A stretch of DNA of 64,000 nucleotides from a virus (IMGVR_UViG_3300045988_100686:64001-128000), one strand, 5' to 3'. Counted from the stretch's first letter, positions 24,150-33,868 are shown. A program made the numbers and translations. The notes: generated from the letters alone by a model not told the origin.

Positions 24150-24509
24150 ATGATTCCTTTAAGTCAAATTTATAAGAGGGAGAAGATTATTCTTACAATA
24201 AAGAATAGTAAAGATCTTATTAAGGAAGTATCCATTAATGGAGTAAACTTACTTAGTAAGACTTTATCACTTATTGTTAATCCTGATTTAAACTGTGACC
24301 TCTTCCTGTTGAGAACCACAAAGTCAGGAGGAATAGTCTTCGAGCAATCAACAAAAGGGAATATTAGAATTACGATCTCCTCTAATATTTCCCTTGAATC
24401 AACCACAGATAGACCTACAACAAATTTCATAAGGGTATCTCAACGAGAGAAAAAGAATAGGCAGTGGACAATCTGTGAGCGATTCTATACCTTGGAGATC
24501 AATAGTTAA
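24150..24509 (+). CDS. hypothetical protein (119 aa), first gene of plus-strand island
   Basis: ATG preceded by AAGGGGGGAG RBS. Confidence 0.5.
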   Translation: MIPLSQIYKREKIILTIKNSKDLIKEVSINGVNLLSKTLSLIVNPDLNCDLFLLRTTKSGGIVFEQSTKGNIRITISSNISLESTTDRPTTNFIRVSQREKKNRQWTICERFYTLEINS

Positions 24510-24528
24510 ACGAAAGAAGGATTTTATT

Positions 24529-24759
24529 ATGAACACTAATCTGACCCGCATTGTATTTATCTCTGGCCAAACTCAACCGTACGTATTCAGCCCGGACGAC
24601 GGCGCAAATGATCTTACTGACGCTCAGATCTTGGAATGCATCGCTGCAACTGATCCGTCTGTTAACACTTCTGCTCGCCTGGCTTGGCAGCAAACCCAAT
24701 ACAATGGTGAGCAAGTTCTCTCCGCAACCTATGTGCCGCAAGCACAAACCAAAGGTTAA
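24529..24759 (+). CDS. candidate ubiquitin-like (beta-grasp) protein ending in Gly
   Basis: 77 aa from ATG 24529 (AAGGA 7 nt upstream; the track's 94-aa ORF starts further upstream); RIVFISGQTQPYVF strand plus LTDAQILECIAA helix pattern; C-terminus ...QTKG immediately followed by stop; codon usage CTG/CGC/GGC/CCG distinct from neighbours. Confidence 0.4.
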   Translation: MNTNLTRIVFISGQTQPYVFSPDDGANDLTDAQILECIAATDPSVNTSARLAWQQTQYNGEQVLSATYVPQAQTKG

Positions 24760-24840
24760 TCTGCTGGGTTTCTCTAATTAATTGATCTAGCCTTGTTAGG
24801 CTACGATTACTGTGTAGCATTTTCTGGTAAAAATTTAATA

Positions 24841-24868
24841 TTGAATTAGAATATTATGATGGCATAAT
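24841..24868 (+). promoter_or_regulatory. possible promoter TTGAAT-16nt-CATAAT for E2/JAB/E1 operon
   Basis: hexamers read in the 268-bp spacer; weak. Confidence 0.25.
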
Positions 24869-24955
24869 CGTTCTAAAGACAATTGCATATTGAAAGACCT
24901 AGATAGTCGGTAATAGGTGAACAGAAAGACTTAATCTTCTACAAGTTATACGCAA

Positions 24956-25005
24956 GGGGTCTATGTAGTCTTCGGACTGCATAGATTCCCTAAAATTTTT
25001 TTTTA
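24956..25005 (+). terminator. rho-independent terminator after Ubl-like gene
   Basis: 15-bp stem GGGGTCTATGTAGTC / GACTGCATAGATTCCC with UUCG tetraloop followed by T9. Confidence 0.7.
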
Positions 25006-25027
25006 GTACTTTGAAAGGAGGATAATA

Positions 25028-30974: not shown

Positions 30975-30980
30975 GCTAAC

Positions 30981-31016
30981 GGTGGGCTCTTTGTGAGTCC
31001 ACCTTTTATTTTTTAT
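30981..31016 (+). terminator. rho-independent terminator after E1 gene
   Basis: GGTGGGCT-ctttgtg-AGTCCACC stem then TTTTATTTTTTAT. Confidence 0.6.
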
Positions 31017-31029
31017 GGAGGTATGCTAT

Positions 31030-32004
31030 ATGCAAATCCCAAGTTGGTTTATGGATAAGTATTTTCCAGAAGGTAGCGCACGCTCTGCTATAGTCTGTGA
31101 TGACGGAGAATTAAAATCATTCTTACGAATGGAAGCAGATGATAAGAATGCTGGGTGCGAAATCTTTGGTGATTATAGCTACGTGGAAGATATCATGGCA
31201 GTAATGTGTGAACCTGTTGTGGCCCATGAATTATCACTGCCAGCGCTTGAAGACTTAGTTCCTGATAAATATCATATATATAGGGTTATTCCACCATATT
31301 ATCTGCAGTTGTGGTACAAATATCAGCTGTCAAATAGGGGCATGACAAGTAGCTATACAGAAGATAAATTTAAGGTTGATTTTATTACTGCGTATATCAT
31401 TGAGTTCCCATGGGAACAGATGTCAAGTTGTAGCAGAAGAAAAACGAGATCAAAAAATGATGTAGACCACTGTATGTATGACAAAAATTTATTTAATGCT
31501 TGGTGTTATCAAAAAGATACTATTGAGGCTGTAGCACAGTTTCTTAATATCTGTAGAATCCCTGCATCTGAGGAAGAGATTGCGAAACTATTTATATCTA
31601 GGTTTATCTGGTATAGCTTTGTGACTCAATTGGATCTGCTGGATAGCATAGAAATAGGGGAATGGCTTGATTTTTATAATGGAGCACCGTATAGATCAAG
31701 ATGCGTTGATAGAAACTATGAGTTGAATTCTAGAAAAAGTTGTGGCCACTGGGGTGGTCTCATGGCTGCAGGGATTAAGATAAGCCGTATCCTGGAATAT
31801 CCTAGAAATGCTGATTCAGTAAAATCTAGAGTCTTGCAAAGGGCTAGGCTCTTAGTTGTAATGTTTTGTATGTCCCAGTCACCCAGAACGGTGAAGCTGA
31901 TCATTGAAGGTCTTATGACGTTTTCTGCGTCAATATCAGGTACATGGATGTTAAGCATCATTGAACCACTGGTAAGGGAGGTGGAGCCTTCATGGCTAAA
32001 ATAA
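31030..32004 (+). CDS. Cys/Trp-rich hypothetical protein
   Basis: start moved to ATG 31030 (GGAGG at 8-nt spacing; the track's 31015 ATG lies in the terminator T-tract); 325 aa. Confidence 0.5.
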   Translation: MQIPSWFMDKYFPEGSARSAIVCDDGELKSFLRMEADDKNAGCEIFGDYSYVEDIMAVMCEPVVAHELSLPALEDLVPDKYHIYRVIPPYYLQLWYKYQLSNRGMTSSYTEDKFKVDFITAYIIEFPWEQMSSCSRRKTRSKNDVDHCMYDKNLFNAWCYQKDTIEAVAQFLNICRIPASEEEIAKLFISRFIWYSFVTQLDLLDSIEIGEWLDFYNGAPYRSRCVDRNYELNSRKSCGHWGGLMAAGIKISRILEYPRNADSVKSRVLQRARLLVVMFCMSQSPRTVKLIIEGLMTFSASISGTWMLSIIEPLVREVEPSWLK

Positions 32005-33824
32005 ATGAGTTTACTATAGTGAGTGAGCTGAATGATGAGTTTAGTCTACGGGTATTTATGGAGTCGGGACAAAAGGTTGCTCAAGTTAATAATGTCTCTC
32101 ATGATTTCTTAAGAGAGGCAATGCCTACTAGCAGGCTTGGAATAAGAACTCCAGGACTTGCTCCCTGGCCATCTAAATTTAAGGAAAATCCAGTTCCTGA
32201 TGGATACTCTATTGCACTAAGTCATAAGTATACATTTGGGTCGATGTGTCTTAAGATGCTCTTGAACAAGCAAGCCAGACACAGATATTTTGCGTTATTA
32301 CTCGCGTTGTTTGGTAATAATGAAAATACCAGGGAACTTCTCACTGTAATGTTGTTAAGAACGAAGTTTACTGATGAATTACGATATTTATGTGAGCAGC
32401 TTGACATTTCTCGTATGTCTGTTAGAACCTGGGATAGTGTGGCTATAGACAACAAGCCTGGCAGTGTAAAGTTTAATGATGTTAGAAATTCTCCATGTAG
32501 TTGGTCGAGTGCACTTAGAAATGGATGTCTTGCTGACGGATATGTACCTCATCCGAACATATGGTTCAGAGATGTGAAAAATAAAAGTTTGTTTACTAAG
32601 ATATCCGCTTGTGAGATGTTCCCTAATCTTGCTCCAAAGATCCTGGCAAGCATCCCTAAGTACCCTAAAGGAGGCAAGGTAGATAGAATTGTAGATATAA
32701 GGACTCAGATTCTGTTCAATATGCTGAGAAATGCATATGGACTCAAGTATGAGGATATCATTGTTGATAAGCAGCTAGATCTTAATACATATGAAGTTCT
32801 ATCTTCTCTCTGTGCTATTCTTACTGCTGCTGCAGGATTAGGCGGCAGGGTTTCTATTACTGATATCAGAGGAGTTGATCCAGACTTAGATGTAAAATTA
32901 AGGTTTAGTCTCTGGTATCGTAATGTAAGATCAAGGATACTGACACTTCAAGGGAATTATGGTGTGGCAGGTGATGCCTGGCTTATGGACAAACTGCTTA
33001 CTTCATTAGCTGTTGTAATGAATGCGGGGGATAAACAGGAAAGTGAATTGCTAACGTCGTGTGTACGAGCTGCAGTTGATGAAAATGATCTCCAGGAAAC
33101 CCTTGAGGGATGGGTGTCTAAGAGGAATATCAATATGTATCTTGGTGATACGAATACTTTAAACGCGGTGAATGTTCCCGCATCTACCTTGAGGAGCATT
33201 GAAGATGGGATAGATGACATTGTACAATCACTGTCTGACAAGGATAACATTGTTAAATGCCTAAAAGAACTGGTGCAGCTTCAGGAGTCTTCTATTAGTG
33301 GGAAGGCATTTGATCCTGTCACTACTACTAACTATACAAATATACAGTATAACAACAATGGACTTGTAACTGCGAGCCTGATTCCAATGATTACAAACAG
33401 ATTCCAACTACTGGACTACATTTATAGAATGAGTACGTATAGAGAAAACGAGTTTATCTATGATACTATGGGAATCGTAAACAGATGCTCTAGGACTATA
33501 AGTTCCCATGTAAGTTCTTATGAATATAGTATAGGTATTTTGAAGAAATGGGAAGAGTTGCGGGATATTGCACTTGATCAGGTCTCACACAACGGTTCCG
33601 GGTATTTTTCAACTGAAATGTTGTATTGGAGTGCACTGGCTAGAGTTCTGGTAACCGACTGGCAACACTTCTGCAGAATCAATGCAGGGAAATCCAGAGA
33701 TGAGCTGTTTGAGATGTCAGTACTTACGGATAATCCATTCGCTGATATTGAGAACAGTGTCTGCCAAGAAATTGATGAGTATAAATCTGGATATGCAAGA
33801 TGGCGTGAAAACAGGTTTAAATGA
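31992..33824 (+). CDS. large hypothetical protein (610 aa)
   Basis: ORF overlapping previous stop by 13 nt. Confidence 0.5.
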   Translation: MAKINEFTIVSELNDEFSLRVFMESGQKVAQVNNVSHDFLREAMPTSRLGIRTPGLAPWPSKFKENPVPDGYSIALSHKYTFGSMCLKMLLNKQARHRYFALLLALFGNNENTRELLTVMLLRTKFTDELRYLCEQLDISRMSVRTWDSVAIDNKPGSVKFNDVRNSPCSWSSALRNGCLADGYVPHPNIWFRDVKNKSLFTKISACEMFPNLAPKILASIPKYPKGGKVDRIVDIRTQILFNMLRNAYGLKYEDIIVDKQLDLNTYEVLSSLCAILTAAAGLGGRVSITDIRGVDPDLDVKLRFSLWYRNVRSRILTLQGNYGVAGDAWLMDKLLTSLAVVMNAGDKQESELLTSCVRAAVDENDLQETLEGWVSKRNINMYLGDTNTLNAVNVPASTLRSIEDGIDDIVQSLSDKDNIVKCLKELVQLQESSISGKAFDPVTTTNYTNIQYNNNGLVTASLIPMITNRFQLLDYIYRMSTYRENEFIYDTMGIVNRCSRTISSHVSSYEYSIGILKKWEELRDIALDQVSHNGSGYFSTEMLYWSALARVLVTDWQHFCRINAGKSRDELFEMSVLTDNPFADIENSVCQEIDEYKSGYARWRENRFK

Positions 33825-33834
33825 TTTGTACTTA

Positions 33835-33868
33835 GACGAGAGTGAAATACCTCTCGTCGTTTTTTTTA
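33835..33868 (+). terminator. rho-independent terminator ending plus-strand island
   Basis: GACGAGAG-tgaaatac-CTCTCGTC then T8. Confidence 0.7.

What the first reader, a model, noticed from the sequence alone, without database searches (positions are those of the whole stretch)
24150..33868. Phage-borne ubiquitin-like conjugation module (Ubl, E2, JAB, E1) inserted antisense between head and tail genes
Seen in sequence: 27622..29472 carries an exact JAMM motif (HSHDSMGAFWSGTDD = H-x-H-x7-S-x2-D). 29469..30974 carries the E1 Rossmann and adenylation blocks (GAGGTGG ... IDGDTYEPKNIGRQL). 26774..27607 has an E2-like active-site flap with Cys (FFNMYGDARVCIGDIP). 24529..24759 is a 77-aa beta-grasp-like protein ending ...KG-stop. 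E2, JAB and E1 are translationally coupled by overlapping stops and starts, and the island is cut into three units by clear rho-independent terminators (24956, 30981, 33835). Established knowledge: separate-gene Ubl-E2-JAB-E1 operons with this gene order (Bil/Bub-type; Iyer-Burroughs-Aravind 6E/E1/JAB operons; CBASS Cap2/Cap3) are bacterial systems, and Bil is an anti-phage system that conjugates a Ubl to the phage central tail fibre. Inference: here the complete set sits in a virulent-looking phage on the opposite strand inside the virion-morphogenesis region, next to tail-fibre genes. It could tag the phage's own virion or fibre proteins, tag host proteins, or act as a decoy or antagonist of a host Bil-like defence. 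Five co-transcribed unknown proteins (25028, 25309, 24150, 31030, 31992) are candidate substrates or adaptors.
Basis: partly seen in the sequence, partly recalled or inferred. Interest (0 to 1): 0.92.

Follow-up and report, generated by a model that had tools for sequence, protein, structure and literature searches.

The report
Phage-encoded ubiquitin-like protein tagging system
A large gut phage carries its own complete ubiquitin-like protein-tagging kit (tag, activating enzyme, conjugating enzyme, trimming protease). It is of a bacterial type (PRTRC/"6d") that has never been tested in the lab, and it is conserved across a whole lineage of big phages, so the phage itself probably needs it.

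Summary
Window 24150-33868 is the only + strand block in 64 kb. It encodes a 76-aa beta-grasp protein ending ...AQTKG, an E2 (Prok-E2_D), a JAMM/JAB peptidase and a ThiF-type E1. The three enzymes score above Pfam thresholds and their catalytic residues are invariant across orthologues.

The interpretation needs correcting.
- **Family:** the module is not Bil/Bub-like. All three enzymes match the uncharacterised PRTRC cassette best (Iyer-Burroughs-Aravind operon type "6d"), and the gene order is the same.
- **Not an inserted island:** the block sits next to the RNA polymerase beta' gene in about 15 related gut-phage contigs, with E1 identity down to about 30%.
- **Wider spread:** diverged versions occur in cultured large phages: Salmonella Arash, Vibrio D69/D148/D181, and Bacillus WH1/Edson/KLEB27-3.
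- **Tag:** relatives encode it as head-to-tail arrays of 2-5 units, each ending TKG, like polyubiquitin. The tag is also the most conserved part (95% identity where the enzymes are about 61%).

The most likely mechanism is E1 adenylation and thioester formation, transfer to the E2 cysteine, conjugation to protein targets, and JAB processing and removal. The targets are unknown. Weak virion proteomics hints point to phage particles. I rate it a new variant of a known kind, of high interest.

The parts
24077..24084 (+). Possible promoter -10 element: GGTATAAG, one mismatch from the GGTATAAT motif found upstream of other genes in the window
   Evidence: Read from the sequence. GGTATAAT occurs 10 times against 3.2 expected; 9 copies are on the - strand and, of the upstream regions inspected, 6 carry it. 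Function is inferred only.
24150..24509 (+). p119: conserved protein of unknown function, first gene of the tag transcription unit
   Evidence: Orthologues sit immediately upstream of the Ubl gene in 15 related loci and in L019. No Pfam, PHROG or NCBIfam match.
24529..24759 (+). Ubiquitin-like tag: 76 aa, beta-grasp fold, invariant C-terminus AQ(T/N/S)KG
24954..25008 (+). Terminator-like hairpin (UUCG loop) followed by a T-run, between the tag unit and the enzyme unit. A near-consensus -10 (GGCATAAT, 24861-24868) lies in the same 268-nt spacer.
   Evidence: Sequence read. Not reported by the scan. Relatives keep a 115-700 nt spacer here.
25028..25312 (+). p94: small conserved protein, translationally coupled to p494 (GTGA overlap)
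   Evidence: Orthologues in 13 other related loci; junction. No family match.
25309..26793 (+). p494: fast-diverging protein with an acidic (poly-Asp) tract in relatives. It occupies the position of PRTRC protein F, the 'alpha-helical protein' of 6d operons.
   Evidence: Alignment A8. The equivalence is positional only: hhalign to a bona fide PRTRC_F found nothing. The Arash protein at the equivalent position (gp250c) was detected in virion MS.
26801..27607 (+). E2-like conjugating enzyme (Prok-E2_D / PRTRC_B type). The catalytic Cys is in RVCIG, 8 residues after an invariant Asn.
   Evidence: Pfam 25.5 bits against 25, and 8 of 9 orthologues hit. PRTRC_B 7.9e-6. hhalign to a canonical PRTRC_B gives 90.5%, E 1.4e-6. 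C191 and N183 are invariant, numbered from GTG 26774.
27622..29472 (+). JAB/JAMM metallopeptidase with an N-terminal domain and a roughly 390-aa C-terminal extension specific to this clade
   Evidence: Prok-JAB 26.2 bits; PRTRC_A 1.5e-10. E134, H185, H187, S195 and D198 are invariant.
29469..30974 (+). E1-like adenylating enzyme with a single ThiF-type domain carrying large insertions. Invariant Cys422 lies in the MSCAERA motif.
   Evidence: ThiF 30.8 bits; PRTRC_ThiF 6e-17. AF2 pLDDT 81.4; Foldseek top hits are Cap2, Atg7, UBA3, SAE and ThiF. Invariant motifs.
30981..31013 (+). Rho-independent terminator after E1
   Evidence: 9-bp stem, 6 GC pairs, T-run.
31030..32004 (+). p329: hypervariable protein downstream of the terminator; membership of the system is uncertain
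   Evidence: 78% identity to L001 where E1 is 91%; beyond that only a 54-residue match to L009.
31992..33824 (+). p610: hypervariable protein; membership uncertain
   Evidence: 71% identity to L001. Relatives carry unrelated-looking proteins of 617-976 aa at the same position.
33835..33868 (+). Rho-independent terminator that ends the + strand block

Best explanation
This is a phage-encoded ubiquitin-like protein conjugation system of the PRTRC / 'operon type 6d' kind. It is a long-standing core module of a lineage of roughly 150-190 kb phages that encode their own RNA polymerase.

**Shown here**
- A strongly constrained beta-grasp tag ending in Gly.
- An E1 with intact ATP-binding and adenylation motifs and an invariant Cys.
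- An E2 with an invariant Cys.
- A JAMM peptidase with a complete metal site.
- A conserved gene order.
- Relatives whose tag is made as a multi-copy precursor, or with an extra residue after the Gly.

**Inferred mechanism**
1. The tag gene, on its own short transcription unit, is expressed in excess over the enzymes.
2. JAB exposes the C-terminal Gly where needed (KGC ends, poly-tag arrays) and later removes or recycles tags.
3. E1 adenylates Gly76 and takes the tag as a thioester on Cys422.
4. The tag passes to the E2 cysteine (Cys191, or Cys182 counted from ATG 26801).
5. It is then joined to lysines of target proteins. p119, p94 and p494 may act as specificity or scaffold factors.

**Targets (inferred, not shown)**
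- About 45%: the phage's own proteins, probably particle or assembly proteins.
- About 30%: host proteins, as takeover or counter-defence.
- The rest: other.
For: **Domain assignments.** Pfam hits above threshold for three adjacent genes. The best NCBIfam hit of each enzyme is its PRTRC counterpart. hhalign of the E2 profile to a bona fide PRTRC_B gives 90.5%. The E1 model matches E1 folds.

**Catalytic residues.** They are invariant across orthologues of 25-40% identity.

**Tag.**
- Homology to Prok_Ub-positive repeats.
- The TKG end is shared with the tag protein (PRTRC C position) of phage BgVeeders33, whose F, B, A and ThiF proteins pass the PRTRC cutoffs.
- Head-to-tail arrays of 2-5 units, each ending TKG, in Bacillus phage WH1, Vibrio phage D69 and metagenomic relatives.
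- Some orthologues end KGC.
- The tag is 95% identical between the window and L007 where the enzymes are about 61%. Synonymous against non-synonymous codon differences are 32:4 against L007 and 23:0 against L001.

**Conservation.** Synteny holds in all related loci. Seven cultured large phages carry a homologous JAB in such a module; E2 and E1 were confirmed in Arash, E1 in the Bacillus phages WH1 and Edson, and E2 (weakly) in D69.

**Virion hints.**
- In the Arash virion MS, the rows that fit GenBank gp246c (E1), gp247c (JAB), gp248c (E2) and gp250c by coverage-times-length arithmetic show 226-430 spectra.
- The penta-tag gp211 of phage WH1 is annotated 'virion structural protein'.
Against: - No conjugate has ever been shown for any 6d/PRTRC system.
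- All PRTRC scores are far below NCBI's curated cutoffs (25, 41 and 62 bits against 131, 102 and 145).
- No E3-like or target-binding domain was recognised.
- Pfam Prok_Ub does not hit the window tag directly, and its profile does not match the single BgVeeders33 PRTRC_C-position sequence.
- One relative's tag units end NKS, not KG.
- The virion evidence is weak. Arash particles were purified on a sucrose gradient only, and 116 of 272 proteins were 'found', including ribonucleotide reductases. The basis of the WH1 annotation is unknown.
- In Vibrio phage D69 the module lies beside small early-type genes, including a RecBCD inhibitor. That fits a host-directed role better.
- I could not measure the position of Cys422 relative to the adenylation site.
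Confidence: 0.72

Rival explanations
1. Same biochemistry, but directed at the host. The phage tags host proteins (defence, transcription or proteolysis factors) early in infection, possibly with enzymes delivered in the virion. It would be a takeover or counter-defence device rather than a morphogenetic one.
For: - PRTRC cassettes ride on plasmids, ICEs and temperate phages, all of which must establish themselves in new cells (PMC1779556).
- The block is transcribed apart from, and opposite to, the structural genes, and lacks an exact copy of the GGTATAAT motif.
- In Vibrio phage D69 it adjoins small early-type genes and a RecBCD inhibitor.
- The enzymes appear in Arash particles alongside the virion RNA polymerase.
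- The downstream genes p329 and p610 are hypervariable, as arms-race genes are.
Against: - Counter-defence genes are usually sporadic and variable, whereas this block is a fixed core module across deep divergence.
- The tag is extremely conserved.
- No host target is suggested by any domain.
Confidence: 0.3
2. One reading: a Bil/Bub-type system captured by the phage, acting as a decoy or antagonist of a host Bil-like defence.
For: The gene order Ubl-E2-JAB-E1 equals that of Bil (PMC10557695), and tail-fibre genes lie nearby.
Against: - The best family for all three enzymes is PRTRC/6d, not Bil, Bub or CBASS.
- The E1 has one adenylation domain, not the two-domain-plus-Cys-domain E1 of Bil (PMC10557695).
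- The tag is a Prok_Ub-type protein ending TKG.
- The block is ancient in the lineage, not a recent capture.
Confidence: 0.04
3. Not protein tagging. The E1 and the beta-grasp protein would form a sulfur-carrier (ThiS/MoaD-like) or peptide-adenylation (MccB-like) pathway that makes a small molecule or a modified nucleotide for the phage.
For: The best PDB sequence hits of the E1 are MccB and ThiF-type enzymes. A C-terminal Gly on a beta-grasp protein is also the sulfur-carrier signature.
Against: - An E2 with an invariant Cys and a JAB peptidase are always present.
- No rhodanese, cysteine desulfurase or sulfurtransferase domain was found in the block.
- Multi-copy tag precursors make sense for a stoichiometric protein modifier.
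Confidence: 0.06
4. A plasmid-style partition or maintenance cassette, as the name PRTRC (ParB-related, ThiF-related cassette) and a 2026 prophage paper assume.
For: Canonical PRTRC is linked to ParB and occurs on plasmids and a temperate phage (PMC13366799).
Against: - No ParB-like domain was found in the nine proteins.
- The carriers are large phages with their own RNA polymerase and show no lysogeny genes in the regions seen.
- The enzymology points to protein modification.
Confidence: 0.04

Closest known systems
PRTRC cassette = Iyer-Burroughs-Aravind operon type 6d (Prok_Ub, alpha-helical protein, Prok-E2_D, JAB with JAB-N domain, ThiF-type E1)
   Same: - Each enzyme's best family match is its PRTRC counterpart.
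- Gene order is the same: tag, small gene, large variable protein, E2, JAB, E1.
- The tag ends in GTKG-like residues.
- The SC motif of the E1 is invariant in both.
- The HPN-like Asn lies 8 residues before the E2 Cys.
   Different: - Scores are far below the equivalog cutoffs.
- No ParB and no recognisable PRTRC D, E or F proteins.
- JAB (about 620 aa against about 190-270) and E1 (about 500 against about 250) carry large extra regions.
- The His after the E2 Cys is not invariant.
- The carrier is a large RNA-polymerase-encoding phage rather than a plasmid or ICE.
- Relatives use poly-tag precursors.
Bil (bacterial ISG15-like) types I and II
   Same: Four separate proteins in the order Ubl-E2-JAB-E1. 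The tag has a conserved Gly, sometimes followed by extra residues that a JAB must trim.
   Different: - Bil is a host anti-phage system, whereas this is phage-borne.
- Different E1 architecture: no inactive adenylation domain and no helical Cys domain.
- Different E2 and tag families.
Type II CBASS Cap2/Cap3
   Same: The E1 fold is closest to the Cap2 and Atg7 E1 domains. A JAB partner is present.
   Different: Cap2 is an E2-E1 fusion that conjugates a cGAS-like enzyme. Here there is no CD-NTase or effector, and a separate beta-grasp tag is present.
Bub (6E/DUF6527) operons
   Same: [quoted passage not shown]
   Different: Bub uses fusion proteins and a DUF6527 serine protease. Its multi-domain Ubls are single modifiers, not arrays of units that each end in a cleavable TKG.
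Lambda/T1 tail assembly proteins I (Ubl) and K (JAB + NlpC/P60)
   Same: It is the only phage Ubl-JAB pairing I found described in the literature searched, and it is linked to tail assembly (PMC1779556).
   Different: No E1 or E2; the Ubl there is a fused domain that is processed rather than conjugated.
Eukaryotic polyubiquitin genes
   Same: Relatives encode 2-5 head-to-tail tag units with a short C-terminal cap, which calls for a processing peptidase.
   Different: The window phage itself has a single-unit gene. Some arrays have linkers between the units.

Membership tests
PRTRC / operon type 6d | Small beta-grasp tag of the Prok_Ub family with a C-terminal Gly | tested here: met
   Beta-grasp model. 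End-to-end hhalign at E 3.5e-5 to repeat units that score 3.1e-17 on Prok_Ub. TKG end as in the BgVeeders33 PRTRC_C-position protein. No direct Pfam hit.
PRTRC / operon type 6d | E2 of family Prok-E2_D / PRTRC_B with a conserved Cys | tested here: met
   Pfam at or above the gathering score, and 8 of 9 orthologues hit. hhalign 90.5% to a PRTRC_B that passes its cutoff. The NCBIfam equivalog cutoff is not reached (25 against 131 bits).
PRTRC / operon type 6d | JAB peptidase (PRTRC_A) with an N-terminal domain and a full JAMM site | tested here: met
   Prok-JAB 26.2 bits; PRTRC_A 1.5e-10, below its cutoff (41 against 102 bits). E, HxH, S and D are invariant.
PRTRC / operon type 6d | ThiF-type E1 (PRTRC_ThiF) | tested here: met
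   PRTRC_ThiF 6e-17, below its cutoff (62 against 145 bits). Motifs are shared with the canonical PRTRC ThiF, including the SC motif.
PRTRC / operon type 6d | Scores above NCBI's curated cutoffs (equivalog membership) | tested here: not met
   All three enzymes are far below their cutoffs.
PRTRC / operon type 6d | ParB homologue and PRTRC proteins D, E and F in the cassette | tested here: not met
   No such hits among the nine proteins. p494 against PRTRC_F by hhalign: nothing. Only the positions correspond.
PRTRC / operon type 6d | Gene order tag - (small) - large variable protein - E2 - JAB - E1 | tested here: met
   Compare the window with Burkholderia phage BgVeeders33.
Bil (types I/II) | E1 with tandem inactive and active adenylation domains and a mobile helical Cys domain | tested here: not met
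   There is one GxGxxG adenylation domain at the N-terminus. The invariant Cys sits in a short motif before the last long helix. The Bil architecture is taken from PMC10557695.
Bil (types I/II) | Sequence membership of the BilA-D families | tested here: inconclusive
   PADLOC returned no matches other than weak E1 hits to CBASS E1-E2 models. I did not verify that this PADLOC release contains Bil models. The best NCBIfam hits are PRTRC.
Bil (types I/II) | Host-encoded, sited in defence islands, protects against phage | tested here: not met
   The module is encoded by the phage itself, among RNA polymerase and virion genes.
Type II CBASS (Cap2/Cap3) | E2-E1 fusion next to a CD-NTase and an effector | tested here: not met
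   E2 and E1 are separate genes and there is no CD-NTase.
Any Ubl conjugation system | Formation of thioesters and isopeptide conjugates | not testable with these tools
   Needs biochemistry or mass spectrometry.

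The most novel reading that the evidence does not exclude
A lineage of large phages carries, as core genes, a complete virus-encoded ubiquitin-like conjugation cascade. Its tag and enzymes end up in the virion, either because phage particle proteins are covalently decorated with the tag, or because the E1/E2/JAB machinery is packaged and delivered to tag host proteins at the start of infection. This would be the first functional assignment for the 6d/PRTRC family, and a phage counterpart to the host's Bil system.
Probability: 0.35. 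Interest if true: 0.92.

Novelty: new variant of a known kind. Interest (0 to 1): 0.8.

Why it matters
Ubiquitin-like conjugation in bacteria has so far been shown experimentally only as a host weapon against phages (Bil, CBASS) or in Bub operons, whose biological role is still unknown. The 6d/PRTRC type was predicted in 2006 and remains the one family without any experiment. A 2026 paper still calls it a partition cassette.

Here that family turns out to be a conserved, expanded core module of large virulent-looking phages, including cultivable ones on Salmonella, Vibrio and Bacillus. This gives genetically tractable systems in which to ask what a virus of bacteria does with its own ubiquitin-like tag.

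It also shows that polyubiquitin-style precursor genes exist in phages, and it flags mis-annotations. The Arash tag gene is called in the wrong frame. The 'virion structural protein' of phage WH1 is a five-unit tag array.

Tried and rejected
**Searches that found nothing**
- Near-identity DNA search of the block against 50,697 phage records: no match.
- PHROGs: no hit for any of the nine proteins.
- PADLOC: only weak matches of the E1 Rossmann region to CBASS E1-E2 models.
- PDB sequence search with the E2: nothing. With the JAB: only noise.
- First IMG/VR scan with the single E1: nothing. It worked only with an alignment.
- Rfam and tRNA scans of the window: nothing.

**Comparisons that gave no signal**
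- p494 profile against a bona fide PRTRC_F: no similarity.
- Window tag profile against the single BgVeeders33 PRTRC_C-position sequence: not significant. The link to Prok_Ub rests on the intermediate repeat family.

**Attempts that could not settle the question**
- Timing class from promoters: the GGTATAAT motif marks many - strand genes, but the module has only one-mismatch copies, so this is not decisive.
- The AlphaFold-database fold library was unavailable.
- No paper on phage vB_BceM_WH1 was found, so the basis of its 'virion structural protein' label is unknown.

**Readings rejected**
- Recent insertion: synteny and GC content speak against it.
- Bil decoy: the enzymes and the tag belong to different families.

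Full report
**1. What is in the sequence**

The 64-kb window has about 40% GC and almost all of its genes are on the - strand. The only + strand block is 24150-33868, and the GC skew flips there.

To the left, on the - strand, lies the C-terminal part of an RNA polymerase beta' subunit with an intein-like N-terminus (21290-23992). Further left is a head-maturation-protease-like gene. To the right, after a 1.2-kb gene-poor spacer, lie tail-fibre-like genes.

The block holds nine ORFs: p119, a 76-aa protein, p94, p494, E2, JAB, E1, p329 and p610.

**2. Checking the four assignments**

- **E2, JAB, E1.** Pfam places three adjacent genes above their gathering scores: Prok-E2_D 25.5 against 25, Prok-JAB 26.2 against 25, ThiF 30.8 against 28.1. 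Eight of nine E2 orthologues hit Prok-E2_D, best 3.5e-9.
- **Conserved E2 residues.** Across orthologues only 25-32% identical, the E2 keeps Cys191 (RVCIG) exactly eight residues after Asn183. That is the spacing of the HPN...Cys motif of classical E2s, which I state from established knowledge. It also keeps a GN(H)DL motif.
- **Conserved JAB residues.** The JAB keeps Glu134, His185, His187, Ser195 and Asp198.
- **Conserved E1 residues.** The E1 keeps GAGGTGG, DGDxxExKNxxRQL, IDCVDK, SSGNxxxTGQV and MSCAERA with Cys422.
- **E1 fold.** The E1 models well (pLDDT 81.4, pTM 0.87). Its best structural matches are E1 enzymes: the CBASS Cap2 E1 domain, Atg7, UBA3, SAE, UBA7, ThiF and MccB.

**3. Gene junctions and terminators**

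- JAB/E1 overlap as ATGA, and p94/p494 overlap as GTGA.
- Orthologue alignments and Shine-Dalgarno positions put the E2 start at ATG 26801, the JAB start at 27622 and the p329 start at 31030.
- The terminators at 30981 and 33835 are clear.
- The hairpin near 24956 has a UUCG loop and a T-run offset by 5 nt.

The block therefore falls into three units: p119 with the tag; p94-p494-E2-JAB-E1; and p329-p610. A separate short unit for the tag, closed by a hairpin, would allow the tag to be made in excess over the enzymes. That is inference.

**4. Which family**

NCBIfam's best hit for each enzyme is its PRTRC counterpart: PRTRC_B 7.9e-6, PRTRC_A 1.5e-10, PRTRC_ThiF 6e-17. All are far below the curated cutoffs.

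PRTRC corresponds to operon type 6d of Iyer, Burroughs and Aravind. That type has a small tag with a C-terminal Gly, a fast-diverging alpha-helical protein, an E2 lacking the classical His, a JAB with an N-terminal domain, and an E1 (PMC1779556). According to the Corbett-lab papers, 6B is CBASS, 6C is Bil type II and 6E is Bub. None of the papers I read reports an experiment on 6d.

A bona fide PRTRC cassette, with F, B, A and ThiF all above their cutoffs, sits in the Burkholderia phage BgVeeders33.
- Its gene order is the window's: tag, small gene, large protein, E2, JAB, E1.
- Its tag carries ...RRAVGTKG.
- The window E2 profile aligns to its PRTRC_B at 90.5% probability across the catalytic region.
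- The SC motif of the E1 is shared.

What does not fit is also clear.
- There is no ParB and no detectable PRTRC D, E or F.
- JAB and E1 are two to three times longer than their PRTRC counterparts.

Bil membership fails on E1 architecture and on family matches. CBASS fails on the lack of a fusion protein and of a CD-NTase.

**5. The module is old and widespread in big phages**

Homologues of the E1 led to contigs of up to about 165 kb, mostly from human-gut metagenomes. In these, the same block lies head-to-head with the RNA polymerase beta' gene. E1 identity runs from 91% down to about 30%.

Iterated HMMs recover p119, the tag, p94, p494, E2, JAB and E1 in most of these loci.

The closest cultured phages by RNA polymerase are Vibrio phages D69, D148 and D181 and Salmonella phage Arash, at about 30% identity. 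Both groups carry a diverged module.
- Arash has E2 (gp248c), JAB (gp247c) and E1 (gp246c).
- D69 has a tag array, an E2 and a JAB.
- Bacillus jumbo phages WH1, Edson and KLEB27-3 carry one too.

The block is therefore not a recent antisense insertion. The Arash paper never mentions ubiquitin or ThiF. [quoted passage not shown] My literature searches found no description of such a system in phages. The library searched is incomplete.

**6. The tag family gives the strongest functional evidence**

- **Conserved end.** All orthologues end AQ(T/N/S)KG, and some have one extra Cys after the Gly.
- **Arrays in relatives.** In more distant modules the tag gene is a head-to-tail array.
  - L023 holds four full units plus a partial first unit cut by the contig end. 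Each ends VKAGTKG, and the protein scores 3.1e-17 on Pfam Prok_Ub.
  - WH1 gp211 has five units, each ending KVQAGTKG, plus a 15-residue cap.
  - D69 has three units with linkers and a 5-residue cap.
  - Metagenomic proteins have two to five units.
- **Link to the window tag.** The window-clade profile aligns end to end with these units (hhalign E 3.5e-5).
- **What arrays imply.** Arrays and capped ends require an endopeptidase that cuts after Gly. That is the established role of JAB and deubiquitinases on polyubiquitin, and of BilC on BilA (PMC10557695).
- **Constraint.** The tag is 95% identical between the window and L007 where E2, JAB and E1 are 61-62%. Synonymous against non-synonymous codon differences are 32:4, and 23:0 against L001. 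This ubiquitin-like degree of constraint fits a protein that must fit E1, E2, JAB and its targets.
- **Rarity.** The family is rare: 34 clusters at E <= 1e-3 among 1.84 billion representatives.
- **An exception.** One sub-family ends NKS instead of KG. I cannot explain this.

**7. Mechanism**

*Shown:* the parts list, the intact catalytic residues and the precursor architecture.

*Inferred:*
1. JAB exposes the Gly.
2. E1 adenylates it and forms a thioester on Cys422. This Cys precedes the last long helix. From established knowledge of the E1 family, I believe that is the position of ThiF Cys184 and Uba5 Cys250. I did not test the correspondence.
3. The tag transfers to the E2 Cys.
4. It is ligated to lysines.
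5. JAB can reverse the ligation.

No E3-like domain was found. p119, p94 and p494 are conserved partners of unknown role. p494 corresponds to PRTRC F by position only.

**8. Targets are open**

*For phage or virion targets*
- The module has core-gene status across deep divergence.
- The tag appears to be needed in high dosage.
- WH1's tag array is annotated 'virion structural protein'.
- The Arash virion proteome points the same way. Coverage multiplied by protein length shows that the paper's numbering runs one above GenBank's from Gp242 onward.
  - Gp247 is the E1: 267/346 = 77.17%.
  - Gp248 is the JAB: 253/412 = 61.41%.
  - Gp249 is then the E2, by the same offset.
  - Gp251 is gp250c: 244/320 = 76.25%.
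  - These rows show 226-430 spectra, comparable to genuine structural proteins.

*Caveats on the Arash data*
- Particles were purified on a sucrose gradient only.
- 116 of 272 proteins were detected, including ribonucleotide reductases.
- The real tag ORF was not in the search database, because GenBank gp251c is called in another frame.

*For host targets*
- PRTRC is carried by plasmids and ICEs.
- The block is transcribed separately and on the opposite strand.
- In D69 it neighbours early-type genes, including a RecBCD inhibitor.
- p329 and p610 are hypervariable.

I put phage targets at about 45% and host targets at about 30%.

**9. Verdict**

This is a new, expanded, phage-borne variant of the predicted but experimentally untouched 6d/PRTRC ubiquitin-like system. 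It occurs in cultivable phages, so it is directly testable.

Noticed in passing
window 33869-35056: A 1.2-kb spacer with no ORF longer than 48 aa lying within it, between the convergent + block and the - strand genes. It is AT-rich and full of repeats: a perfect 19-nt inverted repeat (34222-34240 / 34367-34385), (TA)n tracts, and a 36-nt direct repeat at both ends (33910 and 34894). Relatives keep a 0.9-1.45 kb gap at the same place, and short stretches match L005, L008 and L019. It could be a replication origin or a regulatory region. No Rfam or tRNA hit.
   Followed up: partly
window 21290-23992 (- strand): The RNA polymerase beta' C-terminal gene carries an intein/Hint-like region at residues 34-248 (Intein_splicing 1.2e-7, below the gathering score). 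The Arash and Vibrio homologues align only from residue ~345 onward, so the N-terminal third is clade-specific.
   Followed up: no
window, e.g. 2882, 13958, 20762, 24035, 43226, 48189, 58946 (- strand): GGTATAAT occurs 10 times against 3.2 expected. Nine copies are on the - strand and several lie just upstream of genes, so it is a likely promoter -10 element. The Ubl block has only one-mismatch copies (24077-24084 and 24861-24868).
   Followed up: partly
L021 107-307 (Salmonella phage Arash OQ632216, complement of about 180513-180713): GenBank gp251c appears to be called in the wrong frame. The overlapping ORF encodes a 66-aa tag ending RRTGTKG. This sequence is gene-called in many metagenomic relatives (P0140, P0143 and others) and also occurs as tandem dimers (P0133-P0136).
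   Followed up: yes
L026 2289-3188 (Bacillus phage vB_BceM_WH1 gp211): A protein annotated 'virion structural protein' is five tandem ubiquitin-like units, each ending KVQAGTKG, plus a 15-residue tail. I could not trace the basis of the annotation.
   Followed up: partly
window 31030-33824 and the same position in L003, L008, L009, L010: The two genes after the E1 terminator are hypervariable: 78% and 71% identity where E1 is 91%, and unrelated-looking proteins of 350-980 aa in more distant relatives. This is the pattern of genes under diversifying pressure.
   Followed up: partly
L019 2897-3613; P0137, P0138: One sub-family of tag arrays ends each unit in VAQNKS rather than TKG. Either the modifier C-terminus is not Gly in these phages or the cleavage site differs.
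   Followed up: no
L006 10001-12478 and 15169-16380: In the most divergent clade member the E1 has grown to 825 aa through long insertions, and a GIY-YIG/NUMOD homing-endonuclease gene lies just downstream.
   Followed up: no
PDB 9egb, 9egc, 9egd: The best PDB sequence match of the broad E1 profile is a recently deposited 264-aa 'THIF-type NAD/FAD binding fold domain-containing protein' solved as multi-chain assemblies. Its biology is unknown to me, and it may be a close structural reference for PRTRC-type E1s.
   Followed up: no
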